The notes beneath the pieces are model-generated. The model was not told the DNA's origin, did no database searches, and was given only the letters and a program-made list of their open reading frames with translations. A program made the translations under genes and the position numbers. Shown piece after piece: positions 1,447 through 31,534 of a stretch of 32,011 nt of DNA (position 1 is the first letter of the stretch; the number at the start of each line of letters is the position of its first letter). The DNA is from a virus (taxonomy: Duplodnaviria > Heunggongvirae > Uroviricota > Caudoviricetes), in IMG/VR virus record IMGVR_UViG_2695420503_000024, positions 1 to 32,011 of that record, one strand, 5' to 3'.

Positions 1447-1533
1447 GCTGAAAAACATAACCCATAAAATGCTAGCTGTACCAGGAACCACCTCCTTAGC
1501 CTGTGTAATCTCCCTTACACGGGCTTATTTTTT
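1447..1533 (+). ncRNA. cyaR: CyaR (RyeE) Hfq-dependent small RNA
   Basis: Sequence GCTGAAAAACATAACCCATAAAATGCTAGCTGTACCAGGAACCACCTCCTTAGCCTGTGTAATCTCCCTTACACGGGCTTATTTTTT matches recalled CyaR, including the CCUCCU seed and the terminal hairpin plus U-tract. Confidence 0.85.
1507..1533. repeat. attL core: 27-bp AATCTCCCTTACACGGGCTTATTTTTT, identical to 31508-31534
   Basis: Exact 27-bp direct repeat at both prophage ends; it overlaps the 3' end and terminator of cyaR. Confidence 0.85.
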
Positions 1534-1595
1534 ACGCGTAATACAATGAAATAAAAGGATTTATTTCTGGTCACGTCCACACATTGACCACATCG

Positions 1596-1623
1596 ACAAA
1601 AAAGCCCCTCGACTGAGGGGCTT
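1596..1623 (-). terminator. Rho-independent terminator downstream of ogr
   Basis: Minus-strand hairpin AGCCCCTC-AGTC-GAGGGGCT followed by a T6 run, 12 nt after the ogr stop. Confidence 0.6.
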
Positions 1624-1634
1624 CCTGTTTGTAA

Positions 1635-1853
1635 TTACATCCACATAATTTGCTGCCCTGACGGCAACGGGTGCGGCCTCACGGCGTGGACTTCTCCCGG
1701 CTTCACGATGTATCGCTGTACCGACTCATAAGTGATGAACGTGGCGCTGCAATTCACGTTCTGGCACTGGTGATAACGCTCTTTTGTCGTGTCAGTGATA
1801 TAGCGACTTGTACGCGCATGTGCGGCATGCTGGCATAAAGGACAATGAAACAT
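1635..1853 (-). CDS. ogr: Ogr zinc-finger late-gene transcriptional activator (72 aa)
   Basis: MFHCPLCQHAAHARTSRY...CQNVNC has the Cys4 zinc-finger spacing of P2 Ogr; ATG at 1853 has a GAGG RBS 8 nt upstream. The ORF-track N-terminal extension was rejected. Confidence 0.88.
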   Translation of the reverse strand: MFHCPLCQHAAHARTSRYITDTTKERYHQCQNVNCSATFITYESVQRYIVKPGEVHAVRPHPLPSGQQIMWM

Positions 1854-1934
1854 CGCGAGCACCTCTTCCGGTTTTGTTGATGGTGCCATTTTAGTTAATT
1901 TATCCTTATAAAACAAACAGATAAAATAAAAACA

Positions 1935-3098
1935 TCACTCATCATCTTCTGTTTCGTACTCCACATCAGAAAGCCTGACCTCAAGCTCCAGGGACGTCGT
2001 GAAGCCGCTATTATTCAGAAAATGTGTCACCTTAGTGATTGTCCAGTCCTGCTCGTCTATGACGCGCTTAAAGCCTGATACTTTGACCGGCGTTTCCGTG
2101 TAAATATCTGCACGACCGGTAGCCAGGATGATGGAGAACTCCGCAACGCCCCGTTGCAGTTTATCCCACTTCGCCTGAGCGGCGCGCATGGCCTGCGCTT
2201 TCGTGGCATATACCGTGGTCAGGGCAAAAACGTTATCAGCCTCACCGGCCATGTATTCACCTTCGCGCGCTTCCGGTACTTTAGGCGCTTTCTTCTGCCT
2301 GACCGGTTTCGCTTTCGGGTGCTCCAGTGCGCGCAGGTGTTTTTCTTTCTTTTTGCGTTTCAGTTTTACCTTCTGCTTTTGCGGTTTCGGGTCTTTGGTG
2401 TGTAACCACTTTGCTGTTACGCCGGTATAGGCTCCACGGTCAGCAATCGCAAAATGATGGCGGTCGCCGTCACTGCGGGTGATGGTAATCTGCGGGATTT
2501 TTTTACCGCTGGCCGTCACCCCCTGCCCCGCTTTGAGAAACAACAGTTTTCCCATTTTTACCGACACCTCACCGCCGTTGCGTTCTGCAAGACGGGTCAG
2601 GAATTTTGCATCAGACTCCTGCGACTGGTCGATGTGCGGAATTTTAATTCCGGCCAGTGACGGCGCGACACTGGCTTCCAGCCTGTTACGGGAGGCTATC
2701 GCCTCAACAATCGCACCGAGCGTGGTGTCATGCCAGGAGCCTTCACGGCGGGAATTGAGCGTGCCACGAAAATCTGCACTCCGGGCGCGGATGGTGACCA
2801 CATCCGGCGCGCCCCGGTGTTCAACCTCATCAACGGTAAATTTCCCTTTGCATACCAGGGCAAAACCTTTCCAGCCGATATACACCGTCAGGACAGCGCC
2901 ACGAACCGGCAGCCCGACCTGCCCGTCGGCATCGTTCAGTTCAATATCAAGCTGGTCAGCCTCAAAGCCCCGGTTATCCGTCAGGGTCATGCTCATCAGA
3001 CGGTCGCTGATATTGCCGGTAATATCCCTGCTGTCGAGCATCAGCATGTAATCCGGTGTCAGCGTACTGCCTGCATCAAATGTCAGTGCATCCAGCAT
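1935..3098 (-). CDS. D: Tail protein gpD (387 aa)
   Basis: Length and position match P2 gpD; ATG verified at 3098. Confidence 0.85.
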   Translation of the reverse strand: MLDALTFDAGSTLTPDYMLMLDSRDITGNISDRLMSMTLTDNRGFEADQLDIELNDADGQVGLPVRGAVLTVYIGWKGFALVCKGKFTVDEVEHRGAPDVVTIRARSADFRGTLNSRREGSWHDTTLGAIVEAIASRNRLEASVAPSLAGIKIPHIDQSQESDAKFLTRLAERNGGEVSVKMGKLLFLKAGQGVTASGKKIPQITITRSDGDRHHFAIADRGAYTGVTAKWLHTKDPKPQKQKVKLKRKKKEKHLRALEHPKAKPVRQKKAPKVPEAREGEYMAGEADNVFALTTVYATKAQAMRAAQAKWDKLQRGVAEFSIILATGRADIYTETPVKVSGFKRVIDEQDWTITKVTHFLNNSGFTTSLELEVRLSDVEYETEDDE

Positions 3099-3577
3099 TA
3101 TCCCGCCCCCGTCATACCTATGAATTTAGTCGCCATACTGCCAGCTTTACCGATGAGCGATTCCGCCTGTTTACCGATATCGCCATAAAGCGCGGCCAGT
3201 GATTCATCAACGCGGGTGAGCGACAGCGTAAAATCAATTTTCCGGGGTGTGCCGTCTGCAAAGAAAATACTCCCTGTTTCACTCACCCTGCTGATGACAT
3301 ACATGCCGTAAATCATGCCGGTGCCATCCAGCAACGGCCACGCCCGGCCTTCATCTGCCATCAGCCTGAGCGTGGTCATCGTCAGCTTTCCGCCGGTCAG
3401 TTCGGGATAAAGCACACCGGCAAGCGTGATGTTTTCCTCGCCAACACCGAGAAACTGAAAGGCATCCCGTTTACCGATACGGGAATTTGACGGCCAGCGA
3501 TAATCTGATTCACGCTGCATGGTCTGGTGTGGCAGCGTCTGGCGCATAAAAACAAACATACCTAACGCGAGCATCAT
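3098..3577 (-). CDS. U: Tail protein gpU (159 aa)
   Basis: Synteny and length match P2 gpU; stop overlaps the D start. Confidence 0.85.
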   Translation of the reverse strand: MMLALGMFVFMRQTLPHQTMQRESDYRWPSNSRIGKRDAFQFLGVGEENITLAGVLYPELTGGKLTMTTLRLMADEGRAWPLLDGTGMIYGMYVISRVSETGSIFFADGTPRKIDFTLSLTRVDESLAALYGDIGKQAESLIGKAGSMATKFIGMTGAG

Positions 3578-3591
3578 TTTTCGTCACCTCC

Positions 3592-6039
3592 TTAACCGTC
3601 ATGCATCATGCTGGCACGGGCGCGCGCACGTTTATCCCGCTCGTATTTTTCGAGCGCATCCTGTAACTGGCGGTCAAGCTGTGTCCCCGGCGCAGTACCA
3701 CCCGTCAGGCTGATGTGATATTCGTTTTTACTCTGGTCCACATAAGAGCGGCCAGCCGGTGCCGTAACCGGCTGATAAGCCTGATAACCTGCATAAGAGC
3801 TGGTCGCCGGAATATAACCACCGGTGCCATACGTGGCGGCATGAGTTCTGGCGGCGGTCTGGTCAAGTGTGTCTGACTCTTTGTTGATAACACCGAGTTT
3901 TTCCAGTACCCAGTCAATACCGCTGCGCAGTTTGTTGAACGCATTAAGCGGCAGCATCAGCGCGTCAGCCAGTGCCTGCCCGAACATGACGCCCGTGTCA
4001 CGGCAACGGTTCAGGGTGTCCTGGGTGGCTTTGACCGGGGCAATCAGGTTTTTAAACCACTGCCACGCGGCCTGTAACTTTTCACCCAGCCAGTTAAACA
4101 GCGGCTTAAGTGGCGTGAACAGTTCCCCCACCGGCGCAAATGCCGCTTTCAGCCCTTCAACCACACCGCCAAAGAATGCGCTGACAGGCTCCCAGTATTT
4201 ACGGATAAGCAACGCCCCGGCGACAATGGCAGCCACCACGGCCACAACCGGCCAGCTAATCGCACTGATGGCCGTCATAACGGCACTACCAACCGTCGTG
4301 AAGATTGCCCCCATTGCGCCTGCTGCCGCGATAATGGCATTGATGCCGGTGATAACCGGCCAGGCTACGAGGCCAATGGCACCGATGACACCAGTCAGCG
4401 CCAGTGCACCACCGACAATGATGCCGATGGTTGACGCCAGTGATTTGTTTTTCTGTATCCAGCCGTCGAGTTTTAACACATACTTTGTGGCCGTCTGCGT
4501 GAGCTTACGCAGTGCGCCTTCCTGCTGGTCAAACAGGTCAGTCCCCACCGCCTCATAAGCGGACTGAAACTCCTTAAAGTCACCGCCGAGGTTGTCCTGC
4601 ATGATATTTACCAGCTCAGCGGTCTTTCCGTCTGAGGCTTTAAACGCAGCGGTCAGTTTGTCCAGCTTTCCGGTTGACGCGGCAGTCATCAGCACAGCGG
4701 CGGCTGAGCTGGCCTCCTCCCCGAAAATGGTTTTCATGTATTCGGCCTGCTGGGCAGTACCGAGCCGGTTTTTCTCAAAACTGGCCTGCATTTCTTTCAG
4801 AATGGTAAATACTGGTCGGGTGTTTCCCTTGCTGTCTGAGGTTTTCACACCAAGCTCTTTCAGTGCATCCCACGCTTTTCCCGTCGGTGCCTGCAGGCGG
4901 CTTAACACGGCACGGCTTCCCGTCCCCGCCATTGAGCCTGTGATTTTTGCATCATGCAGCGCCCCGACCATTGCGGCGGTTTCTTCAATGCTGACACCGG
5001 CATTTTTTGCCACAGGTGCGGCATAGGTCAGCGCATCGCTCATGCCGTCAAAATCGGCGGCGGTTTTGTTCATCGTCATGGAGAGAACATCCCCGATATG
5101 AGCGACCTTATCGTTTGAAAGCTGAAAGGCGGATTTCATCCCCATCAGCAGGGCGGCGTTTTCTTCCATCGTGCGGCGGTTCGCCAGCGCCATATTCAGC
5201 GTGACCGGCGTTGCCGCCTGAATGGCATCAACATCCCCACCCGCTTTCGCGATGATTATCTGTGCACCGGCCGCATCATCCGCTGAGGCGGCGGTATTGT
5301 CGCCGAGCTGGCGCGCCTGTTTGCGTAGTGCTGCCATTTCGGCGGAATCTTTTGCCACACCGAGCACGGCCTGTAATTCTGAGTTTTTCTGCGCAAACTC
5401 ATAACCGGGCATCAGTAGCTTAACACCGGCCATCGTTCCCGCCGCCGCAATCCCCACACCGGCAGCGCCCACTGAGGCCATATTTCCGGCCAGTTCCTTT
5501 CCGGCCTGATAACGCTGTTTGACTGCGTTAAGTTTTGCCTGTTGCTCACTGACACGCGCCAGCGCATCACGCTGACGGTTAAGCTGTGCGGTGGTTTCAC
5601 TGATACGGTTTTTCAGTCCCTGCTCATCATGTGCAAGATTGCGGGTATTAATTCCCACAACGGCCAGTTCCCGCTGCTGGCGTTTAACGGAATCCGTCAG
5701 GCGGTTATATTTCGCCTGTAAGTCCTCCGCCGCTCGCTTTGCTGATTCCAGCACTTTCGCCTGAGCACGGGTCGGACGTTCGGTGTTTTTAAACTGTGTG
5801 GCAAGGGCTTCGGCTTCCAGCCGTGCCTTTTCAAGTGCATGACCAGTCACGGCGAGCTGTGCACTGGTCTTGCGAAATCCCTCAATACGGGACACCTGAC
5901 CGTTCAGCTCGCGCAGTGATTTTTGTGTTTCCCGGATATCCCCCGACAGCGATTTGCTCGCTGTGCGGATGGATTTAAACGGGCGGGATGCCTGGTCAAC
6001 AGCCCTGAGCAATACCTGTAATTTTACATTGTTACTCAT
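3592..6039 (-). CDS. T: Tail tape measure protein gpT (815 aa)
   Basis: Long Ala/Gly-rich coiled-coil protein with a central hydrophobic segment; same length as P2 gpT. Confidence 0.88.
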   Translation of the reverse strand: MSNNVKLQVLLRAVDQASRPFKSIRTASKSLSGDIRETQKSLRELNGQVSRIEGFRKTSAQLAVTGHALEKARLEAEALATQFKNTERPTRAQAKVLESAKRAAEDLQAKYNRLTDSVKRQQRELAVVGINTRNLAHDEQGLKNRISETTAQLNRQRDALARVSEQQAKLNAVKQRYQAGKELAGNMASVGAAGVGIAAAGTMAGVKLLMPGYEFAQKNSELQAVLGVAKDSAEMAALRKQARQLGDNTAASADDAAGAQIIIAKAGGDVDAIQAATPVTLNMALANRRTMEENAALLMGMKSAFQLSNDKVAHIGDVLSMTMNKTAADFDGMSDALTYAAPVAKNAGVSIEETAAMVGALHDAKITGSMAGTGSRAVLSRLQAPTGKAWDALKELGVKTSDSKGNTRPVFTILKEMQASFEKNRLGTAQQAEYMKTIFGEEASSAAAVLMTAASTGKLDKLTAAFKASDGKTAELVNIMQDNLGGDFKEFQSAYEAVGTDLFDQQEGALRKLTQTATKYVLKLDGWIQKNKSLASTIGIIVGGALALTGVIGAIGLVAWPVITGINAIIAAAGAMGAIFTTVGSAVMTAISAISWPVVAVVAAIVAGALLIRKYWEPVSAFFGGVVEGLKAAFAPVGELFTPLKPLFNWLGEKLQAAWQWFKNLIAPVKATQDTLNRCRDTGVMFGQALADALMLPLNAFNKLRSGIDWVLEKLGVINKESDTLDQTAARTHAATYGTGGYIPATSSYAGYQAYQPVTAPAGRSYVDQSKNEYHISLTGGTAPGTQLDRQLQDALEKYERDKRARARASMMHDG

Positions 6040-6459
6040 TCGTGTTTCCGCTTCGCCGGAGCGCCTTTTCGCGCCATGTGATGAGTTCGGTCAGGCTCAT
6101 GGGATACAGTTCTGATGGCGGCCAGTGAAATATCACTGCCACATCCGCCATCAGGTCATCGACCGACAGATTTTTTGGAAACGTCACTGCACCGAGTTCG
6201 GCGACAAAAAACCGACCACCTTACCGGCCAGCGCCACAAGGTCAGGCAGTTCCAGCGCGGCGACTTCCTGCTCGGTCAGCATCGGTGCCGTCATGCGCGG
6301 CAGCACCTTAATCAGTGCATCGACTTCGGAGTTCGCGACCGCTGCCAGACTGACACCGCGCAGCGTCCCGGCGTTAGGTTTCATCAGCGTGACCTGTTCG
6401 ATGACCTGCTCACCACGCTTGACCGGATTGTCCAGGGTAATGACATTTTCTTTGTTCAT
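6032..6459 (-). CDS. E+E': gpE+E' tail assembly chaperone made by -1 programmed frameshift (~142 aa)
   Basis: Translating by hand after a -1 slip at T_TTT_TTG (minus strand 6211-6205) gives an open frame ...VAELGAVTFPKNLSVDDLMADVAVIFHWPPSELYPMSLTELITWREKALRRSGNTNE ending at TAA 6034-6032, which overlaps the T start. Confidence 0.7.
6184..6459 (-). CDS. E: Tail assembly chaperone gpE (91 aa, zero-frame product)
   Basis: ORF ends ...GFLSPNSVQ; the slippery heptamer sits 7 codons before the stop. Confidence 0.85.
   Translation of the reverse strand: MNKENVITLDNPVKRGEQVIEQVTLMKPNAGTLRGVSLAAVANSEVDALIKVLPRMTAPMLTEQEVAALELPDLVALAGKVVGFLSPNSVQ
6205..6211 (-). other. Slippery heptamer T_TTT_TTG for the E/E+E' -1 frameshift
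   Basis: Minus-strand GGT TTT TTG encodes G-F-L of gpE; this matches the motif known from P2 and lambda G/GT-type tail chaperones. Confidence 0.7.
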
Positions 6460-6515
6460 GGTTTTCTCACTTCTGAATCAGGGTTAACCGGTCAGCCTGG
6501 CTGACCGGATGAAAA

Positions 6516-7034
6516 TCACAGGCCGATATTGCGGCGGTGTTGCTCCAGCCGGTCGACGCCGTTCACCTTCTCAATCATGTTGATGGTGTCGATTTCGACC
6601 AGCTCCTTACCGTCCATCGTCAGCCGGAAATAGGTGCAGACCACGGAGATTTTCGACTCGGTGTCTTCTCCCTGTTTACCCTCGCCGGTGTCGATTTCTT
6701 TCTGACGTCCACGCATGACCACTTCGACGGCCACCGTTTCGCCGGTATCGTCGCGCTGGTAAGAGCCTGCAAAACGAATCGGCACGGCATCCACACCGGT
6801 TGCGGCGTAAAGCTCCCAGATAACCGAATCCGGGAAGCCACCGAGCGACCACTCCATTGACAGCGCATCGTCATCAAGGCCGAGGTCTACCGGTGCGCTG
6901 CCGTTCATCCCCGCACCGCGATAGTTTTCGAGCTTACGGGTCAGTTTTGGTAGCGTGACGGACTTCGCGACGCCCTGATAGCTGTAGCCGTTCAGAAAGA
7001 CGTTCATTAACTTGAGTTTGCGCGGCATTGCCAT
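6516..7034 (-). CDS. FII: Tail tube protein gpFII (172 aa)
   Basis: MAMPRKLKLMNVFLNGYSYQG... and length match P2 FII. Confidence 0.88.
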   Translation of the reverse strand: MAMPRKLKLMNVFLNGYSYQGVAKSVTLPKLTRKLENYRGAGMNGSAPVDLGLDDDALSMEWSLGGFPDSVIWELYAATGVDAVPIRFAGSYQRDDTGETVAVEVVMRGRQKEIDTGEGKQGEDTESKISVVCTYFRLTMDGKELVEIDTINMIEKVNGVDRLEQHRRNIGL

Positions 7035-7046
7035 CGGTCAGGCTCC

Positions 7047-8237
7047 TTAATTGCTGTTAACCGAGGTGACCAGATTTGCCAGGTATTTATCGGTAATACG
7101 CTGTCGCAGGGTCAGGTTTTCAAGAGGAGGCACCGGTGTATAGTCGTAGTCGATATACAGTTTTCCGGCCTTGAGGGTTTCCGCATCGTTGGATTCTTCG
7201 CTGAACCAGCAGGTCGCATCCACGATATAGCCGTTTGTTTTCAGCTCACGGAATTTGGCATTGATGCCGTCAACGATGTCGCGAATCAGCGTTACAGTGA
7301 TGGGCTTGTCCACCGCCCACATGTGCGCCTCAGCCATCGTGTCGGCCAGCACCTGCGCGGTGCGGGTGTAGTTTTCAAAGAGGAACAGCGGGTCATCCGA
7401 GCAGGTACGGTTACCCCAGAAGCGGAAACCGTCACGGCGAATCAGCGTTGTGACACCTGACTCGTTCAACAGGTCAGCATCGGTGCCGGACTCCTGCAAA
7501 TCCCAGAATACAGAGGCACTGATGCCGGTAACACCGTTCACCCCGACGTTGGACAGCGTTTTATGCCAGCCCTGCTCCTGGTCGATTTTAGCGCGCAGCC
7601 CCAGCGCACGGGCGGTGGCATACGCGGTGGCGGTGGTGCTGCTGACCGTATCCCATGCGAGGAAATCCGGCCAGATGACCATCAGCTCACGCTGGCTGAA
7701 ATTCTGGCGGTAGGCTTTCACCTCGGAAATGGTTTTACAGCCCCATGCGCTGATATACCCGAAAGCGCGCAGCTTCTGACAGACTGATGCCAGTGTAACA
7801 GCCACCTCTTTGGTGTCCAGTCCCGGCACGCCGAGAATACGCGGTTTAACACCGGTTACCGATTCCGCCGCCAGCAGGGCTTTCAGTCCGGTGTACTGAC
7901 CGTTTTCGTCGGTGGTGCCGATGATATTGGAAACGGTCTGCGCGAGTTTCGTTTCTTCGTCTTCGCCGGTGCCGTCTTCCACACGGACGACAACGGTGAC
8001 CGGTTTTGACTGGTCAGCGATGGCCTGTAACGACGCCGCCAGCGTGCCTTTTTTACCGGCCTTTGCAATTGCGCTCTGCACATTGGTAATCAGCACCGGT
8101 TTATTGAGGGGGAAGATTTCCGCATCCGCATCGCTGGCCGTGCAGACCATGCCGACAATGGCGGTGGATACGGTGGAAATGACGCGGGTGCCGTCGTTAA
8201 TCTCCAGCACCTGCACGCCGTGATGATAGTCACTCAT
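7047..8237 (-). CDS. FI: Tail sheath protein gpFI (396 aa)
   Basis: Synteny and length match P2 FI. Confidence 0.88.
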   Translation of the reverse strand: MSDYHHGVQVLEINDGTRVISTVSTAIVGMVCTASDADAEIFPLNKPVLITNVQSAIAKAGKKGTLAASLQAIADQSKPVTVVVRVEDGTGEDEETKLAQTVSNIIGTTDENGQYTGLKALLAAESVTGVKPRILGVPGLDTKEVAVTLASVCQKLRAFGYISAWGCKTISEVKAYRQNFSQRELMVIWPDFLAWDTVSSTTATAYATARALGLRAKIDQEQGWHKTLSNVGVNGVTGISASVFWDLQESGTDADLLNESGVTTLIRRDGFRFWGNRTCSDDPLFLFENYTRTAQVLADTMAEAHMWAVDKPITVTLIRDIVDGINAKFRELKTNGYIVDATCWFSEESNDAETLKAGKLYIDYDYTPVPPLENLTLRQRITDKYLANLVTSVNSN

Positions 8238-10018: not shown

Positions 10019-10019
10019 A

Positions 10020-24015: not shown

Positions 24016-24034
24016 GTGCTTTCCCCGCCTCGCC
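24016..24034. other. cos site: 19-nt cohesive-end sequence (reverse complement of GGCGAGGCGGGGAAAGCAC)
   Basis: Exact match to the recalled P2 cohesive-end sequence, at the expected position next to Q. Confidence 0.7.
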
Positions 24035-24175: not shown

Positions 24176-25498
24176 TTAGTTTGTTTTTTTAACTCCACTG
24201 TATTCCGCTATCATCCTCTCAACCGCTGGAAGCAACTCAGCAGGAACGCAAATAGACCTATCTGCCTTTCCAACATCTTTTGGCGTTTTGTAAGTACCAT
24301 TATAATTAAGGACGCATTCTTTAAGAATTTCAAAAAGAGAAACAATAGGGTCTACGCCATAGCTATCAATAAACTTTCGATAGCTATCATTATCAGATAA
24401 CGATGAAATATCTCCATGAACAAACTTACACCTAAGCTCATAGATTATTCCTATTTTTGAATCAATATCAATAATTTTCGCCGCATCTCTGCAAACACCG
24501 CCAATAATTGAATTTTTATTACCATTATTGGTTCCATACATAGCATCCAATGCTATAAATTGATTCAAAAACCTTTCACGTTTGTCATCCCTCCACCCGT
24601 GCGCTATAAAGGAAAGAGCAGACAACATCCTTTTATCAGGTGATGAAAGTATTTTTGTAAGTATCGCCAAGGCTGAATCCGTTATATTTAAATTATATAC
24701 AGACGGAATATTCACCCGAAACTCACTTTCATGATATTTCCCGACACCAAAAGACTCAACTAGATTATTAACAGCAACTCGATTAATCGCAAAAGGATTA
24801 TCAACCGCAAGACATAAAGCTCCAAACAAACTATCAAACATTTTCACCGCTTTATCCTCTGATGAAGCATATGCCACCACCAAGCAGGATTTTGACTGTC
24901 GAAAATATTTCCCAATTGGTTTATGCCGCATATATTCATCATCATAAAAATCAACAGGAACCTTGATGTCAGTTTTGTCTTTAATATCAGAAAGTAATTC
25001 CACCCCTAGCCCCGGGCCATATAAAAATAAATTTTCTCTAAGCTCAAGCTTCCCATCAAAGCCAGCACACCCAAGATTATAAATATACGGACAGGATTTT
25101 ATTCGTGAAAGCATATAATACTTAAACATCTCACTAAGATTTTTTCTATGAACTTGCGTTATAATATCATCAACACAAATCTTATCAGGATTAAGCGACA
25201 GAAAATCAGCATCAATGCGATTGAAGGCTTCAGAACAAAAACCTAACAATAATCTTTTCGCATTGTGAAGGTCACTTATACCTAATTGGGGGCCATATGC
25301 TTTTAATAACCTACTAGCACATTTTGCAATCTCCTCATCATCATATGCAAGCCAAAAAACAAAATCTTCTAATGCTTTACCGACTTGGATACAAGGCTGC
25401 TCCTTACCATGACTATAAAAAAAACTTTTGCATAATTTGTTTATCATGCCATTAGAGAACGCAACCTTCATAGATACTTCATCCCTTAACGCACTCAT
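24176..25498 (-). CDS. Hypothetical 440-aa protein, AT-rich cargo gene at the P2 old/tin hotspot; candidate anti-phage defense or abortive-infection protein
   Basis: Clean 1323-nt ORF with ATG and an AAGGA RBS; roughly 30-35% GC against ~60% in flanking phage genes; occupies the position of P2 orf91/tin/old; no Walker A motif, no TM segment; contains a weak HEPN-like R-x4-H (RCKFVH). Confidence 0.75.
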   Translation of the reverse strand: MSALRDEVSMKVAFSNGMINKLCKSFFYSHGKEQPCIQVGKALEDFVFWLAYDDEEIAKCASRLLKAYGPQLGISDLHNAKRLLLGFCSEAFNRIDADFLSLNPDKICVDDIITQVHRKNLSEMFKYYMLSRIKSCPYIYNLGCAGFDGKLELRENLFLYGPGLGVELLSDIKDKTDIKVPVDFYDDEYMRHKPIGKYFRQSKSCLVVAYASSEDKAVKMFDSLFGALCLAVDNPFAINRVAVNNLVESFGVGKYHESEFRVNIPSVYNLNITDSALAILTKILSSPDKRMLSALSFIAHGWRDDKRERFLNQFIALDAMYGTNNGNKNSIIGGVCRDAAKIIDIDSKIGIIYELRCKFVHGDISSLSDNDSYRKFIDSYGVDPIVSLFEILKECVLNYNGTYKTPKDVGKADRSICVPAELLPAVERMIAEYSGVKKTN

Positions 25499-25581: not shown

Positions 25582-27849
25582 TTAAGAAAACATCACCCAA
25601 TCGTCTTTTACAGCATAACTAAACCGCTCACCGTCATAAATTACTGTTGCCCCGCGCGCCAACGCCTCAAGCTCCCATCGCTGCGGCCTGATACCGTTCT
25701 GAGCAAGGTCAACGCGGATACGGGTAATTTGCATTCTTTCCGACCGGGTCAGTCTGGCCGATGGTGCAATTTCATGTGGTTTTAACGGGCTTCCGTTTCT
25801 TTGCTGACGATTTGGCGTTCTCAGGCCGTGTTTTAATGCGCCCCTGAGCGCCCTCACAACCTCCGGGTCATTCCATTCGATAACACCGTCATCAACCAGA
25901 TTAAGCACTGCTGCGGCGTGCTCAGAAGGTGTGGGAGCCGGTAACGAAGTATCACAACCGGTGACCTTTCCACAGTTATTGACAGGACTCCGAGGCGCGG
26001 CGATGCCGCTTTTTAAAGTCAAAGGCTCAACGACCGGAACTTTCGGCACAATGCGCCAGTCCGTCGTTCTGGTGATATGAATATGACGCGCGCCGAGATG
26101 CGGCGCGTAAATGCCGACCACTCTCTCGACCTCTTCCTCGTACTCGTTAACGTCATCCGACGGGCTACGGGCGACCCTGACAGTCTGACAATCGCGCGGG
26201 ACATTTGCCCCACCCTGCGCGCTGATATACAGCGCAAAATCGCCACTGTCTGCGGCAGCGCGTGCAGCCTCGACGCGTTCGTCAAACTCATCAGCAATGC
26301 TGACGCCGCGAGGCAATTTGCGTAGTTCACGGTAAGCCCCCATTGTCGGCAGGCCAACCGTTTTAAATTGCGGAATGCGCCACGTTGACGCCCATGCGGT
26401 AACAGCCGCGGCAGTGTCTTTCAGCGGCCTGCCGGTATCGTTATCGAGCTGACCATCCAGTGCATAGCCGTCGATGTTTTTTGAAATGTATTTCGCGATA
26501 TATCCCGCAGCACCGCCCCGGTTAAGGTGTTTTGCCTGAAAACGGTTTCGCGCAGCTCCTCTTTCGTCTCCATCCTCTTTGAGCGCGTAGCGACGCATGA
26601 TTTCGATAATCTGGTTACGCTGGCGTGGATTACAAAAAAGCATCATATGCCAGTGCGGCGTTCCGTCGTGGTGTGGCTCGACGACACGCAAACCGTAGAC
26701 CTGTAAATCATTATCCTTGAATGCCGTGCGCATCAGGCTCCAGATGCGGCAGAGATAACGCTGCGCATCCTTTGGATTAAATGCCTCATCGTTCCAGCCG
26801 TGATTAAGCTGAACGGTTTTACTTTCGCCTTTTCTGACCTGACGTGTCGGGTGATACTTTGACGGCGCGGTCAGCGTGATAAACATCCCCACATCACCCT
26901 CTGCGGCGGCGTAACGCTCAATACCGGCAATGGTGTTCATCAGCTCCATCCGGCGAATTTCAGGATTAGAAATACTGCCCATCACCTTACTGATAAGGTC
27001 GATACGCTCGCCGGTTTCCCTGTTTTCAAGGTCACACGATTTAAGAAATTCCAGATTTGCCTGGCGGCGCGCACGCACATCACGAATGGCGTGTTTACTG
27101 GCATAAGGAGAACGGTCTTTATTGACCTCCCCGACAGCTATCAGTAACGCTTCATGCCAGCGCATACGCTGGCCTTTAAGCTGATGAGTCCACCACTCAT
27201 CGTTAAACAGACGGGCAATGGCAGAATATGCCTGCCTCGTGGTCATCTGCCCTTTACGGTATTTTTTCCAGTAGAGCGGGGAAATATTGAAAGCACGTGC
27301 AGCGCCAGCAACATGACCATAGAGGTGAGCCTGCGCCTCATCCGTAAACAGCGATTCTTTTTCGCCATGCGCATCCACCCAGGCATCGCTGAGTTCCTCA
27401 TACATCATGAAAAGCTGCGATGAGATACGGGCAGCAAACTTTTTCAGCTCCTTGTCATTCATTCCCGGCAGGCGCGCATAGTGGTCACGCTCTGCCAGAA
27501 ATAGTAACGACGCGTCGGTGTTCATTTCATGGCGCTGATTCACACGCTCAATGCGCGGCCATAAACGACGCTGAAAAGTGGATGTGAGGAAATAAAACCC
27601 GTGCACCGGGCTTTTATTGCGCCGGATGTAGTCATAGCGTGAAGTAAACAGCGAGCGCAAAAAGTAAGGCAGGCGGTTAATCGTGGATAAAACACCTTGC
27701 ACCTGACGCATCTCGTCACGTGTAAGGGGTCTTTCGCGCCCGACGGCCTCGCGTGGCGAGTTCCATGCATAAGCACCGGTAAACGCCTTACCGGTGCCTG
27801 CAGCAAATGCTGACGGAGGGACAAAACGCCCGGAGGCTTTAACGGCCAT
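25582..27849 (-). CDS. A: Replication initiation protein gpA (rolling-circle endonuclease), ~755 aa
   Basis: Strong match to recalled P2 A; first ATG at 27849 (MAVKASGRF...). The ORF-track start at 27891 is TTG, so the true start carries some uncertainty. Confidence 0.85.
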   Translation of the reverse strand: MAVKASGRFVPPSAFAAGTGKAFTGAYAWNSPREAVGRERPLTRDEMRQVQGVLSTINRLPYFLRSLFTSRYDYIRRNKSPVHGFYFLTSTFQRRLWPRIERVNQRHEMNTDASLLFLAERDHYARLPGMNDKELKKFAARISSQLFMMYEELSDAWVDAHGEKESLFTDEAQAHLYGHVAGAARAFNISPLYWKKYRKGQMTTRQAYSAIARLFNDEWWTHQLKGQRMRWHEALLIAVGEVNKDRSPYASKHAIRDVRARRQANLEFLKSCDLENRETGERIDLISKVMGSISNPEIRRMELMNTIAGIERYAAAEGDVGMFITLTAPSKYHPTRQVRKGESKTVQLNHGWNDEAFNPKDAQRYLCRIWSLMRTAFKDNDLQVYGLRVVEPHHDGTPHWHMMLFCNPRQRNQIIEIMRRYALKEDGDERGAARNRFQAKHLNRGGAAGYIAKYISKNIDGYALDGQLDNDTGRPLKDTAAAVTAWASTWRIPQFKTVGLPTMGAYRELRKLPRGVSIADEFDERVEAARAAADSGDFALYISAQGGANVPRDCQTVRVARSPSDDVNEYEEEVERVVGIYAPHLGARHIHITRTTDWRIVPKVPVVEPLTLKSGIAAPRSPVNNCGKVTGCDTSLPAPTPSEHAAAVLNLVDDGVIEWNDPEVVRALRGALKHGLRTPNRQQRNGSPLKPHEIAPSARLTRSERMQITRIRVDLAQNGIRPQRWELEALARGATVIYDGERFSYAVKDDWVMFS

Positions 27850-28114
27850 ATGAGCCAAAAGCCTCTGAACAACGCCTGCTGAGTTGCTCAACCTGCGCGT
27901 TTAAATCAGCAAAAGACTTTGCGCTTCCGGTCAGAATATCGTGATGCATCAGGCCGGAAACGAGCTGGCTTAATTTCGGGTAATAACCAACCACTGCAAG
28001 CCATTCCTGACCGGCGTTTTTACCGCTTTCCGCTCTCTTTTTCTCGTGGAGAATAAACTGAAAGCTGTCACTGGTAACGACATAACGTTCGCCAATTTCA
28101 ATACGAATACTCAT
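27839..28114 (-). CDS. Hypothetical protein at the P2 orf83 position (91 aa)
   Basis: ATG verified; start overlaps the upstream stop (ATGA) and its own stop sits 5 nt before the A start. Confidence 0.65.
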   Translation of the reverse strand: MSIRIEIGERYVVTSDSFQFILHEKKRAESGKNAGQEWLAVVGYYPKLSQLVSGLMHHDILTGSAKSFADLNAQVEQLSRRCSEAFGSYGR

Positions 28115-28335
28115 GCCGTTCTCCGGTAATGTTTGTTTTTTGCTTCAAAGACTGACTGGCAGGAAACACAACGCGTAGCTGACGGATAAGCCGCACGACG
28201 GGCAGCAGGTATTGGCGCGTCACACTCTTCGCAAACCAGCGCAGAAGCACCGCAATGTTTTACCCTTGCCGCGTTAATCTGACGCTCCAGTAATTCAGCC
28301 TGTTGTTCCTGAATAAAATCTACGTTGTCCGGCAT
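28111..28335 (-). CDS. TraR/DksA-family C4 zinc-finger protein at the P2 orf82 position (74 aa)
   Basis: C-x2-C...C-x2-C (CEEC...CVSC) with a TraR-like layout. Confidence 0.75.
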   Translation of the reverse strand: MPDNVDFIQEQQAELLERQINAARVKHCGASALVCEECDAPIPAARRAAYPSATRCVSCQSVFEAKNKHYRRTA

Positions 28336-28637
28336 TACCAGCTCCTTTTGTCGTTAAGTTTTTTAAATTCATCAGCGCAATAGCTGGCAATTTCTGTCGT
28401 TAATTTCGTCAGTTCATCCACGGAGGAGATTTGCTTGTGAAATACAGCGCGTTTAACAAGTAAATTGACCACATCAGACAGGAGATTTAATTCGTTCTGA
28501 TAAATCGCGATAACAGACTCAGTTATTTCGCGTTTTTCTTTATCAAGACCAAGTTGAATAAGAGATAAATCGCCATTTTTCATAACGGTGATTTTTAAGG
28601 CGTTATTCAGTAATACAACTGAACGAGAACAGGACAT
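28335..28637 (-). CDS. Hypothetical AT-rich protein at the P2 orf81 position (~100 aa)
   Basis: ATG at 28637 with a strong GGGGAGGTG RBS; about 35% GC, well below the neighbours. Confidence 0.6.
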   Translation of the reverse strand: MSCSRSVVLLNNALKITVMKNGDLSLIQLGLDKEKREITESVIAIYQNELNLLSDVVNLLVKRAVFHKQISSVDELTKLTTEIASYCADEFKKLNDKRSW

Positions 28638-28861
28638 CAAAGCACCTCCCCGCGAGACAATCCGATATTGTGAAATTTTTCCGACTCCTGACTGAGCAGC
28701 TCGACTATCTCTACGCGGGATAACTCCGCCTTTGTGATGTGGCGAATTATGGCGTCAAGATGAGAAGAAAAGCGCGTCGCTGCGTCGGCCTGTGCTTCGG
28801 TTCTGGCCTGTTGCAGCAGTAATGCGTATTTACCGCACTGATTTTCAGAAACTGTATGCAT
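28637..28861 (-). CDS. Hypothetical protein at the P2 orf80 position (74 aa)
   Basis: ATG at 28861 with a GGAG RBS. The upstream TTG extension was rejected. Confidence 0.6.
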
Positions 28862-28924
28862 GACTTTCTCCAGGCAAAAAGAAGCCCCGCACAATTAAGT
28901 GCGTTAAAAACTCTGGTTAATTAC

Positions 28925-29425
28925 TTAATGCAGATATTGCTCTGGTTCTACCGACGTCAGAATTGTCGGTGCATACTCAAACAGGCTGAATAATTCACGT
29001 AATGCACGGAATAAGGCATCACGCCAGTAACATGATTCTTCATTAATTCGCCAGTATGGCTGGTTGAATTCTTTTTCAGTCAATCCGGCATGCATAAATA
29101 AAGTACGGCGCTGACTGACAGTTAAAAAGCTAATATATGCATACTCACTTGCACCGACCTGACGGCGTTTTGAGAATGCCCCACGCAGTTCATCAATTGC
29201 ACAAACCAGCCGTTCACGTTCGACATCGTTCATTTCTTCAAAACGCATCGTTGCGTGACGCTGTTTTAACTGCGCATGGAAGCAAACCGTTAGCCGTTCG
29301 CGTTCCATCATCTGATTATAATAATCGCATGTCTCCTGCCAGCGAGGGACGGCCAGATGCTTACCAATTATCCGGCGCATAGCTGCTGGCTGTTTTTCAA
29401 CGAGATTGAGCGTCATCACTGTCAT
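28925..29425 (-). CDS. B: Replication protein gpB (helicase loader), 166 aa
   Basis: Synteny and length match P2 gpB. Confidence 0.88.
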   Translation of the reverse strand: MTVMTLNLVEKQPAAMRRIIGKHLAVPRWQETCDYYNQMMERERLTVCFHAQLKQRHATMRFEEMNDVERERLVCAIDELRGAFSKRRQVGASEYAYISFLTVSQRRTLFMHAGLTEKEFNQPYWRINEESCYWRDALFRALRELFSLFEYAPTILTSVEPEQYLH

Positions 29426-29592
29426 TTCCAGACCCTCCGGCTTTTCAGAAAGGTCAGAGCCTTTTTTAACGGACTCTGTTTTTTGGTGCGGATAATGATT
29501 CCCTTACGCCCCTTACCGTGGGTGATGGTGAAGTCAATCGCCCTGGGGCTTTCGTTACGCAATAACTGAGCAATACAACGAGGCTCATTCAT
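29422..29592 (-). CDS. Small protein at the P2 orf78 position (~56 aa)
   Basis: ATG at 29592 with an AAGGAGA RBS, 11 nt after the cox stop. Confidence 0.55.
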   Translation of the reverse strand: MNEPRCIAQLLRNESPRAIDFTITHGKGRKGIIIRTKKQSPLKKALTFLKSRRVWK

Positions 29593-29602
29593 ACGGTTCT
29601 CC

Positions 29603-29878
29603 TTAACGTGGTTCACCGAGACCTAACCACATCAACCAGCCGTCACGAATCTCTTTAGGACGGCTTTCATAAGCCAGTTTTAGTCCGTTATTCCATGCCG
29701 GAAGGTATACCCAATATTCACCAGCACGCCCCGATACTGACTGAGGGTCAGTAATCTCAATAACTGGTAATTTCCCTTTCTCAATCATGCCCCTTACAGC
29801 TCTTGGAGTTTTACCAATGAGTTTTGCAAACTCCTGATAAGGCACGGCATCAGTCACGCTTACAAGCTGTCTATTCAT
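29603..29878 (-). CDS. cox: Cox: excisionase and repressor of Pc (91 aa)
   Basis: ...DAVPYQEFAKLIGK...GKLPVIE...SGRAGEYWVYLPAWNNGLKLAYESRPKEIRDGWLMWLGLGEPR closely matches recalled P2 Cox. Confidence 0.9.
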   Translation of the reverse strand: MNRQLVSVTDAVPYQEFAKLIGKTPRAVRGMIEKGKLPVIEITDPQSVSGRAGEYWVYLPAWNNGLKLAYESRPKEIRDGWLMWLGLGEPR

Positions 29879-29999
29879 CTGCTACGATTCTCCCTTAGTG
29901 CTTCTAATGGCTCCTAATGGCTAATTATTGCCTAAAAGGATAACTCCAGAAGCACAACATTTCACACTATCAGCAAGAAATTACGCAATCGGAGTAATT
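29879..29999. promoter_or_regulatory. Pe/Pc divergent early promoter and immunity operator region
   Basis: Intergenic gap between divergent cox and C; direct repeats CTAATGGC at 29903-29910 and 29913-29920, 10 bp centre to centre. Confidence 0.5.
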
Positions 30000-30299
30000 A
30001 TGTCAATAGACGTTTCGGAGAAGTTGAAGCTAATCCGTGAATCTGAAAGGTTAAACCGTAAAGAATTCAGTGAATTAACTGGTGTAGCCTACAGCTCACT
30101 TTCGAGCTATGAGAGCCGGTCAAAAAACGCTGGAGTTGAAGCCATAATGAAGGTCTTACAACATCCCAGATTTACTAAATATACTTTGTGGTTCATGACT
30201 GATCAGGTAGCTCCAGAAGCCGGGCAAATTGCGCCCGCTCTCGCACACTTTGGGCAAAACGAAACAACGTCGCCCCACTCCGGTCAAAAGACTGGTTAA
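30000..30299 (+). CDS. C: Immunity repressor C (99 aa)
   Basis: C-terminal ...FTKYTLWFMTDQVAPEAGQIAPALAHFGQNETTSPHSGQKTG matches recalled P2 C; ATG at 30000 with a GGAG RBS. Confidence 0.88.
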   Translation: MSIDVSEKLKLIRESERLNRKEFSELTGVAYSSLSSYESRSKNAGVEAIMKVLQHPRFTKYTLWFMTDQVAPEAGQIAPALAHFGQNETTSPHSGQKTG

Positions 30300-30414
30300 C
30301 AATTTATCGTGAATATATTCATCACAAGTGCCTACTATTGGTGGCTAAATTTCAGCCACCACGAAAAAAGCGATTAGTAGTAGCAAAAAAAAGTACCACT
30401 CGGAGGGTTTTCTG

Positions 30415-31428
30415 ATGGCAATCAAAAAACTCGATGATGGTCGATATGAAGTGGACATCCGCCCTACTGGACGTAACGGAAAACGCATCCGTAGGAAGTT
30501 TGATAAGAAAAGCGAAGCTGTCGCTTTCGAAAAATACACGTTGTACAACCACCACAATAAAGAATGGCTATCAAAACCAACAGACAAACGACGTCTGTCG
30601 GAACTGACACAGATCTGGTGGGATTTAAAGGGTAAACACGAAGAGCATGGGAAATCTAATCTTGGAAAAATTGAAATCTTCACAAAAATAACGAATGACC
30701 CATGCGCATTTCAAATCACGAAATCCCTTATCAGCCAGTACTGCGCCACCCGAAGAAGTCAGGGTATTAAACCTTCGAGTATCAATCGTGATTTAACATG
30801 TATTAGCGGCATGTTTACAGCCCTGATTGAAGCGGAGTTATTCTTTGGTGAGCACCCTATCAGAGGGACAAAGAGGCTTAAGGAGGAAAAACCAGAAACA
30901 GGCTATCTCACACAGGAAGAAATTGCCTTACTGCTTGCAGCACTTGACGGCGACAACAAAAAGATTGCGATTCTTTGCCTGAGTACAGGAGCACGTTGGG
31001 GAGAAGCAGCTCGTTTGAAAGCAGAAAATATCATCCATAACCGCGTCACGTTTGTTAAAACGAAAACAAACAAACCACGCACCGTCCCGATCTCAGAGGC
31101 TGTTGCCAAAATGATCGCGGATAACAAACGAGGTTTTTTATTCCCTGATGCTGATTACCCTCGCTTCAGACGAACAATGAAAGCAATAAAACCGGATTTG
31201 CCAACGGGGCAAGCCACACATGCACTAAGGCACAGCTTTGCCACTCATTTCATGATTAATGGAGGAAGTATTATCACGCTACAACGGATACTAGGTCACA
31301 CGCGGATTGAGCAAACTATGGTTTACGCTCATTTTGCGCCAGAGTACCTTCAGGACGCCATTTCTCTTAATCCGCTAAGAGGTGGTACTGAAGCCGAGAG
31401 TGTCCACACAGTGTCCACAGTAGAGTAA
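30415..31428 (+). CDS. int: Tyrosine integrase (337 aa)
   Basis: Closely matches recalled P2 Int; catalytic HALRHSFATH (H-x-x-R) and TMVYAHF (Tyr) motifs; lies next to attR. Confidence 0.92.
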   Translation: MAIKKLDDGRYEVDIRPTGRNGKRIRRKFDKKSEAVAFEKYTLYNHHNKEWLSKPTDKRRLSELTQIWWDLKGKHEEHGKSNLGKIEIFTKITNDPCAFQITKSLISQYCATRRSQGIKPSSINRDLTCISGMFTALIEAELFFGEHPIRGTKRLKEEKPETGYLTQEEIALLLAALDGDNKKIAILCLSTGARWGEAARLKAENIIHNRVTFVKTKTNKPRTVPISEAVAKMIADNKRGFLFPDADYPRFRRTMKAIKPDLPTGQATHALRHSFATHFMINGGSIITLQRILGHTRIEQTMVYAHFAPEYLQDAISLNPLRGGTEAESVHTVSTVE

Positions 31429-31507
31429 CGTTTAAGGGCTTTCAGTGGTAATTTATGCCGCTCAAACCCGCATTGTACCGTTGAAAGCCCCTACTGGTGA
31501 CACCCTA

Positions 31508-31534
31508 AATCTCCCTTACACGGGCTTATTTTTT
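31508..31534. repeat. attR core: 27-bp AATCTCCCTTACACGGGCTTATTTTTT
   Basis: Exact copy of 1507-1533, 80 bp downstream of the int stop. Confidence 0.85.

What the first reader, a model, noticed from the sequence alone, without database searches (positions are those of the whole stretch)
1507..31534. P2-like prophage integrated in the 3' end of the cyaR sRNA gene, rebuilding its terminator
Seen in sequence: an exact 27-bp direct repeat at 1507-1533 and 31508-31534. The left copy is the last 27 nt of cyaR, including its terminator stem and U-tract, so the phage attP core supplies a functional sRNA 3' end. Established knowledge: temperate phages commonly target the 3' ends of tRNA or sRNA genes and restore them; E. 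coli K-12 carries a cryptic P2 remnant (ogrK, yegZ) at this same locus. Here the prophage looks intact, with all morphogenesis, lysis, replication and immunity genes and a cos site, so it is probably inducible.
Basis: partly seen in the sequence, partly recalled or inferred. Interest (0 to 1): 0.45.

Follow-up and report, generated by a model that had tools for sequence, protein, structure and literature searches.

The report
P2-like prophage at cyaR terminator
A complete close relative of phage P2 sits at P2's classic chromosomal attachment site, which overlaps the last 27 bases of the small-RNA gene cyaR and leaves that gene unchanged. This arrangement is common in E. coli and already documented.

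Summary
An exact 27-bp direct repeat (1507-1533, 31508-31534) brackets a 30.0-kb prophage between yegQ/trhP and yegR, and the left copy is the 3' end of a full-length CyaR sRNA gene (Rfam 100.7 bits). The repeat is the annotated attP core of phage P2. Joining the two phage-side junctions rebuilds P2 attP. Joining the two host-side junctions rebuilds an empty site found uninterrupted, at 100% identity, in natural E. coli genomes. All 37 P2 proteins other than five nonessential ones are encoded full length, and cos, ori and Int are P2-like. The K-12 ogrK/D' remnant is a deletion derivative at the same site. The arrangement is ordinary: 811 of 5,426 complete E. coli genomes carry the same int-core-yegR junction, and the literature already lists "cyaR RNA" as the insertion site of P2-like prophages. 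One inference fails. The switch is the P2 C/Cox type, with no LexA box and no tum, so SOS or mitomycin induction is not expected. Two side observations are more interesting than the finding. One is an uncharacterised 440-aa HEPN protein in the old/tin hotspot. The other is a 1-kb cassette in the Z/fun hotspot, bounded by inverted repeats, that recurs in unrelated mobile elements.

The parts
1..1362 (+). yegQ/trhP, host gene on the left flank
   Evidence: 453-aa ORF. Annotated yegQ/trhP in matching E. coli genomes.
1445..1533 (+). cyaR (CyaR/RyeE sRNA gene), complete, with its terminator at 1498-1525 and U-tract to 1533
   Evidence: Rfam RF00112, 100.7 bits, model positions 1-85 of 85. Fold and terminator scan.
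1507..1533 (+). attL core, the left copy of the 27-bp repeat and the last 27 nt of cyaR
   Evidence: Reverse complement of the annotated P2 attP core.
1532..1596 (.). IHF site (1532-1565) and Int arm-binding P arm (1569-1596), placed by homology to the P2 annotation
   Evidence: P2 features 24324-24357 and 24293-24320 mapped through the alignment. The P arm is identical to P2. The 12 nt next to the core differ from P2 at 5 positions, but the same variant is seen in other lysogens (L021).
1602..1623 (.). terminator hairpin of ogr and the F operon
   Evidence: Terminator scan. Corresponds to the P2 terminator 24265-24288.
1635..1853 (-). ogr, late-gene activator
   Evidence: 100% identical to P2 Ogr over 72 aa. 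Pfam Ogr_Delta.
1935..8237 (-). tail genes D, U, T, E+E', FII, FI
   Evidence: 97.5-100% identity to the P2 proteins, each a single full-length HSP. The E/E' slippery site is identical to P2.
8429..9429 (.). Z/fun-hotspot cargo: a 1001-bp cassette with about 20-bp terminal inverted repeats and a conserved 74-aa two-transmembrane-segment ORF (9029-9253, - strand). It replaces fun(Z).
9494..14599 (-). tail fibre and baseplate genes G, H, I, J, W, V. H is 717 aa with a diverged C-terminus.
   Evidence: H 73.6%, the others 93-100%.
14666..20866 (-). S, R, lysC/B/A, K, Y, X, L, M, N, O. orf30 is absent between S and V.
   Evidence: The 64-66 nt S-V junction is the same arrangement as in phage Wphi.
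21040..23846 (+). terminase large subunit P and portal Q
   Evidence: 99.7% and 99.4% identity to P2. The pO/pP control region is 112/112 identical.
24016..24034 (-). cos, the 19-nt cohesive end GGCGAGGCGGGGAAAGCAC
   Evidence: Exact match to P2 cosL/cosR, with conserved flanks.
24176..25498 (-). old/tin-hotspot cargo: a 440-aa HEPN-domain protein in a low-GC stretch. It replaces orf91, tin and old.
25582..29878 (-). early operon: A (with ori), orf83, orf82, orf81, orf80, B, orf78, cox
   Evidence: ori nick region 60/61 identical. Pfam Phage_Cox.
30000..30299 (+). C immunity repressor, 99 aa, heteroimmune to P2
   Evidence: 64.6% identity to P2 C. 100% identity to the repressor in record ON470606.1. 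The operator region is diverged from P2.
30415..31428 (+). int, tyrosine integrase
   Evidence: 99.7% identity to P2 Int. Pfam Int_N and Phage_integrase.
31394..31491 (.). P' arm Int sites (31394-31420, GTGTCCACACAGTGTCCACAG) and the Cox-binding region (31418-31491), placed by homology
   Evidence: P2 features 24470-24496 and 24399-24472 mapped through the alignment, which is identical here.
31508..31534 (+). attR core, the right copy of the 27-bp repeat
   Evidence: P2 similarity ends exactly at 31534.
31548..31587 (.). decayed copy of the phage P arm in the host flank, an apparent fossil of an older P2-type integration
   Evidence: 75% identity to 1562-1601. Local score 23 against shuffles of 9.6-11.1 (sd 1.8-2.2).
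31694..32011 (-). yegR, host gene on the right flank
   Evidence: 105-aa ORF. Annotated yegR in matching genomes.

Best explanation
The window holds a structurally complete Peduovirus (P2-like) prophage. Its excised genome would be 30,001 bp. It is integrated at the primary P2 attachment site of E. coli (called locI in the older P2 literature, from memory). The 27-bp core of that site is the loop, 3' stem arm and U-tract of the Rho-independent terminator of the CRP-dependent sRNA gene cyaR. Integration is inferred to work as in P2: the tyrosine integrase Int, helped by IHF, exchanges strands inside the 27 bp shared by attP and attB. Because the two cores are identical, cyaR at attL keeps its exact sequence, although part of its terminator is now physically phage DNA. 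A second, non-functional core copy is left at attR next to int. Excision would need Int, IHF and Cox, and would restore attB and attP exactly. Shown here: the repeat, its identity with the P2 attP core, the in-silico rebuilding of attP and attB, the completeness of the gene set, cos and ori, and the population frequency. Inferred: the recombination chemistry, phage viability and unchanged CyaR expression. The phage is not P2 itself. It has a different immunity type (C 64.6%, Cox 83.5% identical to P2, operators diverged) and a different tail-fibre tip. It lacks orf30 and carries different cargo in both accessory hotspots.
For: Exact repeat with 0 expected by chance. Full-length CyaR ending in the left copy. 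Core equals the annotated P2 attP. Rebuilt attP is about 98% identical to P2 over 427 bp, including both Int arm sites. Rebuilt attB is found uninterrupted at 100% identity (H52, H53), and 4,565 of 5,426 genomes cover it in one place. Int is 99.7% identical to P2 Int, and 37 of 42 P2 proteins are full length in single HSPs; the five missing are all annotated nonessential in P2. cos is exact, ori 60/61, the E/E' slip site and pO/pP identical. DNA identity to P2 is 94-98% outside three replaced segments. The same int-core-yegR junction occurs in 811 genomes, for example strain 3359. The K-12 remnant is explained as a deletion from inside D to the middle of the right core copy. Archer et al. 2011 (PMC3032704, Table 2) list 'cyaR RNA' as the insertion site of Wphi2 in E. 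coli W, P2*B in E. coli B and ogr-D' in K-12.
Against: Nothing contradicts the integration model. Viability is untested. The 12 nt next to the core, inside the P2-annotated IHF site, differ from P2 at 5 positions, although other lysogens share this variant. The region upstream of V differs from P2 because orf30 is missing, but phage Wphi has the same layout. The genome is 11% shorter than P2, yet within the range of listed Peduovirus genomes, which run from 28.9 to 34.8 kb.
Confidence: 0.95

Rival explanations
1. The prophage looks complete but is cryptic. It is unable to excise or to form plaques because of point mutations or regulatory changes that sequence comparison cannot detect.
For: The IHF-site segment and the pF and pV control regions differ from P2. 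The only phage-collection record with the same repressor (ON470606.1) is itself a prophage-derived 'partial genome' that includes host genes.
Against: There are no frameshifts, truncations or IS elements in any of the 37 conserved genes. cos, ori and the slip site are intact. The variant control regions are shared with sequenced Peduovirus phage genomes such as Wphi, HQ103 and 9W.
Confidence: 0.12
2. One reading: the prophage is inducible by DNA damage (mitomycin C) like lambda or phage 186.
For: Some P2-like prophages are SOS-inducible. The E. coli HS prophage depends on tum and LexA (PMC11195241).
Against: The switch here is the P2 type: a 99-aa C repressor plus Cox. It is not the 186 type with a CI repressor twice as large (PMC2995052). 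The CTGT-N8-ACAG pattern has no match in the window. Every ORF between A and cos and in the early region is accounted for, so no tum-like gene is present. That P2 itself is not SOS-inducible is established knowledge, recalled from memory.
Confidence: 0.05
3. The repeat is coincidental or an assembly artefact, and the phage DNA is not integrated by site-specific recombination at cyaR.
For: None found.
Against: 0 matches expected by chance. Similarity to P2 starts and stops exactly at the outer ends of the two copies. The same junctions occur in hundreds of independent complete genomes.
Confidence: 0.01

Closest known systems
Bacteriophage P2 (NC_001895.1) integrated at its preferred E. coli site (locI)
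   Same: Identical 27-bp core. Int 99.7% identical. Same arm sites, cos, ori, gene order and late-gene control. 94-98% DNA identity over about 90% of the genome.
   Different: C repressor 64.6% and Cox 83.5% identical, with diverged operators, so it is heteroimmune. The C-terminus of tail fibre H is different. orf30, fun(Z), orf91, tin and old are absent. Different cargo sits in both hotspots. 30.0 kb against 33.6 kb.
P2-like prophages Wphi2 (E. coli W) and P2*B (E. coli B) at 'cyaR RNA' (Archer et al. 2011, PMC3032704)
   Same: Same insertion site and same phage family. The same site is occupied in 811 of 5,426 complete genomes.
   Different: These were not compared base by base here. The cargo genes differ from lysogen to lysogen, as in strain 3359.
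E. coli K-12 ogrK / yegZ (D') cryptic remnant
   Same: Same attL: cyaR, core, P arm, ogr and the start of D are collinear with window 1301-2147.
   Different: K-12 has lost everything from inside D to the middle of the right core copy. 629 bp of phage DNA remain.
Phages that integrate into the 3' ends of tRNA or tmRNA genes and restore them (186 in tRNA-Ile, Fels-2 and SopEPhi in ssrA; PMC3448106)
   Same: Same logic: the attP core duplicates the 3' end of a structured RNA gene, so the gene survives integration.
   Different: The target here is an Hfq-dependent sRNA terminator, not a tRNA-like structure. The core is shorter (27 bp against 50-110 bp), and only part of the hairpin lies inside it.
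Prophage record vB_EcoM-720R8 (ON470606.1)
   Same: Identical C repressor. 98% identity over the early region, int and the yegR flank, so the site and immunity type are the same.
   Different: Different cargo in both hotspots and a different H tail fibre.

Membership tests
Peduovirus (P2-like phages) | Collinear P2 gene order, with homologues of the capsid/packaging (Q P O N M L), lysis, tail, replication (A, B) and late-activator (ogr) genes | tested here: met
   37 P2 proteins matched full length and in P2 order. 94-98% DNA identity.
Peduovirus (P2-like phages) | 19-nt cos site between Q and the right-end accessory region | tested here: met
   Exact match at 24016-24034.
Peduovirus (P2-like phages) | Production of infectious myovirus particles | not testable with these tools
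   Needs plaque assay or electron microscopy.
P2 Int / locI site-specific integration | 27-bp core shared by attP and attB and duplicated at both prophage ends | tested here: met
P2 Int / locI site-specific integration | P2-type integrase with its P and P' arm-binding repeats (consensus tgTGGaCa) flanking the core | tested here: met
   Int 99.7% identical. Arm repeats at 1569-1596 and 31394-31420 are identical to P2. Consensus taken from PMC3448106.
P2 Int / locI site-specific integration | IHF site between core and P arm | tested here: inconclusive
   The homologous segment is present, but 5 of the 12 nt next to the core differ from P2. Binding cannot be judged from sequence.
P2 Int / locI site-specific integration | Junctions recombine to give the natural empty site | tested here: met
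   Rebuilt attB is 977/977 identical to uninterrupted loci in strains BY63 and N25.
CyaR/RyeE sRNA (RF00112) | Covariance-model score above the curated threshold, over the full model length | tested here: met
   100.7 bits against 47, positions 1-85 of 85.
CyaR/RyeE sRNA (RF00112) | Intrinsic terminator hairpin plus U-tract, the Hfq-binding 3' end | tested here: met
   11-bp stem, 6-nt loop, UAUUUUUU tail. MFE -19.8 kcal/mol, z = -3.0.
CyaR/RyeE sRNA (RF00112) | CRP-dependent expression and Hfq-dependent target regulation in this strain | not testable with these tools
   Needs Northern blot or RNA-seq.
SOS-inducible 186-type P2-like phages | Large CI repressor, LexA-controlled tum antirepressor | tested here: not met
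   99-aa P2-type C. No LexA box. No unassigned ORF that could be tum.
HEPN superfamily (440-aa cargo protein) | Conserved Rx4-6H motif | tested here: met
   R356-CKFV-H361. R356 is invariant and H361 at least 90% conserved across 19 sequences of 44-71% identity.
HEPN superfamily (440-aa cargo protein) | All-alpha HEPN fold | tested here: inconclusive
   [not shown]
HEPN superfamily (440-aa cargo protein) | RNase activity or anti-phage phenotype | not testable with these tools
   Needs cloning and phage challenge.

The most novel reading that the evidence does not exclude
The Z/fun-hotspot cargo (8429-9429) may be a discrete mobile cassette with no recombinase of its own. It is bounded by about 20-bp, partly hairpin-forming terminal inverted repeats (consensus GTCYGCTYTGWGCSAAAAGC). 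The same repeat pair flanks different cargo in P2, P2-EC31 and another E. coli lysogen. The same 1-kb cargo, with its repeats, sits at about 99% identity in a lambdoid prophage, a plasmid and a further genomic island with unrelated flanks. If these repeats are the substrate of a still-unidentified recombinase, they would give a concrete mechanism for cargo moving between accessory hotspots of P2-like phages and unrelated mobile elements. A 2026 survey of P2/P4 hotspots leaves that mechanism open (PMC13586616). Separately, the solo 440-aa HEPN protein in the old/tin hotspot could be a new single-gene abortive-infection system.
Probability: 0.3. Interest if true: 0.5.

Novelty: already known. 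Interest (0 to 1): 0.1.

Why it matters
As a finding it matters little. It is a textbook example of a temperate phage using the 3' end of a structured RNA gene as attB without damaging it. It occurs in about 15% of complete E. coli genomes and is already tabulated in the literature. It is useful as a clean annotation: exact att boundaries, the immunity type and the cargo slots. It also corrects an experimental plan, because mitomycin C is the wrong inducer for a prophage with the P2-type switch. The side observations could be worth following for phage-defence and mobile-element biology. These are the HEPN cargo gene, the repeat-bounded cassette shared with unrelated mobile elements, and the fossil P arm in the 'empty' Escherichia attB.

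Tried and rejected
(1) A chance repeat was rejected: 0 expected. (2) I looked for a second CyaR or any other RNA family or tRNA at attR or elsewhere and found none. (3) The phage being P2 itself was rejected on C/Cox divergence, missing genes and different cargo. (4) SOS control was rejected: no LexA box and no tum. (5) The missing orf30 and the different region upstream of V do not indicate a defect, because Wphi has the same junction. (6) I had taken ON470606.1 for an isolated viable phage with the same immunity. The record is a prophage-derived partial genome that includes yegR and yegS, so it is no evidence of viability. (7) The Z-region cassette is not a decayed gtrABC operon: tblastn with the Citrobacter GtrA, GtrB and GtrC found nothing. 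(8) The 440-aa protein has no match in Pfam, NCBIfam, PADLOC or the 50,697 phage records. Only a PHROG of unknown function and the PGAP name 'HEPN domain-containing protein' were found. (9) Full-text searches for a paper stating that the P2 core overlaps cyaR found only Archer et al. 2011. De Lay and Gottesman 2009, Christie and Calendar 2016 and Casjens and Grose 2016 are not held. The original locI work (Barreiro and Haggard-Ljungquist 1992) is cited from memory only.


Full report
**Observation**

The 27-mer AATCTCCCTTACACGGGCTTATTTTTT occurs exactly twice in the window, at 1507-1533 and 31508-31534, both on the + strand. No further match appears even with three mismatches, and none is expected in shuffled sequence. 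The bases on either side of the two copies differ, so 27 bp is the true length.

Rfam finds one RNA gene in the whole window: a full-length CyaR/RyeE at 1445-1530 +, scoring 100.7 bits against a gathering score of 47. There are no tRNA genes. The CyaR terminator is an 11-bp stem (1498-1508 pairing with 1515-1525), a 6-nt loop and a UAUUUUUU tail.

The repeat therefore covers the last two bases of the 5' arm, the loop, the whole 3' arm and the U-tract. Nine bases of the 5' arm lie outside it. The copy at attR has no matching 5' arm and shows no significant fold.

**What the element is**

The DNA between the repeats is a close relative of phage P2. The best matches in the phage collection are P2 and other Peduovirus genomes, at 96-97% identity over 85-91% of the late region and about 97% over the early region.

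Translating the 42 annotated P2 genes and searching the window gave these results:
- 37 are present full length, each as a single alignment, in P2 order, mostly at 93-100% identity.
- The five absent genes (orf30, fun(Z), orf91, tin, old) are all annotated nonessential in P2.
- The 19-nt cos sequence is exact at 24016-24034.
- The ori nick region is 60/61 identical. The E/E' frameshift site and the pO/pP control region are identical.
- The short S-V junction without orf30 is the same layout as in phage Wphi.

By sequence the prophage is complete.

It is not P2 itself:
- The C repressor is only 64.6% identical and Cox 83.5% identical to P2, and the operator region does not align. It should therefore be heteroimmune.
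- The repressor is 100% identical to the one in record ON470606.1. That record is itself a prophage at the same locus, not an isolated phage.
- The C-terminal part of tail fibre H is different.
- Both accessory hotspots hold other cargo.

**Integration site**

The repeat is the reverse complement of the feature annotated 'attP' (24356-24382) in the P2 reference genome. Joining the phage side of attR, the core and the phage side of attL gives a 427-bp sequence about 98% identical to P2 attP. It includes both Int arm sites and the Cox-binding region. The only cluster of differences is 5 of 12 bases next to the core, inside the P2-annotated IHF site. Other lysogens share that variant.

Joining the host side of attL, the core and the host side of attR gives a 977-bp sequence. 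It is present uninterrupted at 100% identity in E. coli strains BY63 and N25 and is covered in one place in 4,565 of 5,426 complete genomes.

K-12 genomes match the same flanks at 99-100% but carry 629 extra bp. These are cyaR, core, P arm, ogrK and the start of D, collinear with window 1301-2147, joined directly to the second half of the right core copy at window 31517. The K-12 remnant is thus a deletion derivative of exactly this kind of lysogen.

**How it works**

By homology with P2, Int (99.7% identical) with IHF exchanges strands within the 27 bp common to attP and attB. Because the cores are identical, cyaR is reconstituted base for base, whatever the crossover point. Excision needs Cox as well. 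The anatomy and the in-silico reciprocal products are shown here. The chemistry is inferred from established knowledge of P2.

**Inducibility**

The claim 'probably inducible' is not supported, for three reasons:
- The switch is the P2 C/Cox type (Pfam Phage_Cox and a 99-aa HTH repressor). It is not the 186 type with a large CI repressor and a LexA-controlled Tum (PMC2995052). PMC11195241 shows an inducible, tum-dependent P2-like prophage for contrast.
- No LexA-box pattern occurs in the window.
- No ORF is left unassigned that could be tum.

From established knowledge (from memory), P2-type lysogens are not SOS-inducible. They release phage spontaneously or after derepression by the P4 antirepressor.

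**How ordinary it is**

- The same int-core-yegR junction is found in 811 of 5,426 complete E. coli genomes. One example, strain 3359, has the same layout with other cargo.
- The exact core occurs in at least 118 IMG/VR viral contigs.
- Among species-representative genomes it occurs in Escherichia, Shigella, Kluyvera and some Enterobacter hormaechei. There it is always the 3' end of cyaR or a prophage junction.
- Archer et al. 2011 (PMC3032704, Table 2) already list 'cyaR RNA' as the insertion site of Wphi2 in E. coli W, P2*B in E. coli B and ogr-D' in K-12.
- The 27-bp core and the K-12 remnant at locI were, to my memory, described by Yu et al. 1989 and by Barreiro and Haggard-Ljungquist 1992. 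I could not retrieve those papers.
- Nilsson et al. 2011 (PMC3448106) still describe P2-type phages as integrating 'between other genes'. The sRNA overlap is therefore not universally stated, but it is not new.

**Verdict on the finding**

Novelty: already known. Interest is low.

**Side observation 1: HEPN cargo protein**

Between A and cos, where P2 has orf91, tin and old, lies a low-GC (35-42%) segment with a single 440-aa gene at 24176-25498 on the - strand.
- It has no Pfam, NCBIfam or PADLOC match and no tblastn match in 50,697 phage records.
- It belongs to a PHROG of unknown function.
- PGAP calls it 'HEPN domain-containing protein' in the 46 E. coli genomes that carry the region at about 99% identity, always next to the replication endonuclease gene.
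- Only 26 clusters of homologues were found, all in gammaproteobacteria.
- An Rx4H motif (R356...H361) is conserved across 19 sequences.
- A 62%-identical homologue occupies the same slot in an Enterobacter P2-like prophage.
- A 49%-identical Vibrio homologue lies beside an HNH protein, in one case in an island that also holds a RES-domain gene and a CBASS pair.

It is a plausible, uncharacterised single-gene defence candidate.

**Side observation 2: repeat-bounded cassette in the Z/fun hotspot**

The Z/fun slot (8238-9493) has no ORF longer than 85 aa. Its inner 1001 bp (8429-9429) is a discrete unit.
- It recurs at about 99% identity, within a few bases of the same ends and with unrelated flanks, in three other settings: a lambdoid prophage between hokD and a DUF977 gene, a plasmid next to an integrase fragment, and another island.
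- It is present in 29 of 5,426 genomes, at most two places per genome (median one). No gene is annotated on the full-length copies.
- Its ends are about 20-bp inverted repeats (GTCYGCTTTGAGCGAAAAGC / GCTTTTGGCACARAGCGGAC).
- The same repeat pair flanks different cargo in P2 (fun(Z)), P2-EC31 and strain 3359.
- The GenBank record AJ512677.1 already annotates these as left and right inverted repeats.
- The cassette contains a 74-aa ORF with two predicted transmembrane segments (9029-9253, - strand). Ten of its eleven homologue clusters, at 58-99% identity, span the full length and keep a length of 71-74 aa; nine are exactly 74. This argues that it is a real gene.
- In Citrobacter the ORF lies upstream of a gtrABC operon, but no gtr remnant exists here.
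- Moura de Sousa et al. 2026 (PMC13586616) state that the mechanism by which hotspot cargo moves between P2/P4 and unrelated elements is unclear. This cassette is a concrete lead.

**Side observation 3: fossil P arm in the host flank**

The host flank just right of attR (31548-31587) is 75% identical to the phage P arm (1562-1601), including 15/15 bases over CATTGACCACATCGA. In Escherichia sp. MOD1-EC7003 the similarity extends over 55 nt into the IHF-site segment, with a score of 30.5 against 9.9 +/- 1.9 in shuffles. Kluyvera and Enterobacter flanks show none. The 'empty' attB of Escherichia therefore seems to carry the scar of a much older P2-type integration.

Noticed in passing
[not shown]
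   Followed up: partly
window 8429-9429 (Z/fun hotspot 8238-9493): A 1001-bp cassette with about 20-bp terminal inverted repeats (GTCYGCTTTGAGCGAAAAGC) carries no annotated gene on its full-length copies in the matching RefSeq genomes. It recurs at about 99% identity with unrelated flanks in a lambdoid prophage (L004), a plasmid (L147) and another island (L148), and is found in 29 of 5,426 genomes. The same repeats flank different cargo in P2, P2-EC31 and strain 3359. How it moves is unknown.
   Followed up: partly
window 9029-9253 (- strand): A 74-aa ORF with two predicted transmembrane segments lies inside the cassette (phrog_25496, function unknown). Ten of its eleven homologue clusters, at 58-99% identity, span the full length and are 71-74 aa long. 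In Citrobacter amalonaticus it lies directly upstream of a gtrA-gtrB-gtrC O-antigen glucosylation operon (L149).
   Followed up: partly
window 31548-31587 vs 1562-1601; L025: The host flank right of attB is a decayed copy of the phage IHF-site/P-arm segment. It is best preserved in Escherichia sp. MOD1-EC7003 and absent in Kluyvera and Enterobacter. The 'empty' Escherichia attB seems to be the scar of an ancient P2-type prophage.
   Followed up: partly
window 29603-30299: The immunity region is not P2's: C is 64.6% and Cox 83.5% identical, and the operators do not align. The repressor is identical only to the one in record ON470606.1 among 50,697 phage records, so this immunity type is rarely sampled.
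   Followed up: partly
window 11449-11523 and 11581-11655: A 75-nt direct repeat (84% identity) lies inside tail-fibre gene H, near where similarity to P2 H changes. Strain 3359 shows further copies. It probably reflects modular repeats in the fibre shaft.
   Followed up: no
L003 (E. coli K-12 lineage) 774-1430: The ogrK/D' remnant of K-12 ends in the 3' 18 nt of a second core copy. It therefore arose by a deletion from inside gene D to the middle of the attR core, not by imprecise excision at the att sites.
   Followed up: yes
L018/L020 (Escherichia ruysiae), L006, L024: The same core is used by other P2-like prophages in E. ruysiae, and by a phage with a different P arm found in both an E. 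coli strain and Kluyvera intermedia. The cyaR site is thus shared by several Peduovirus lineages across genera.
   Followed up: no
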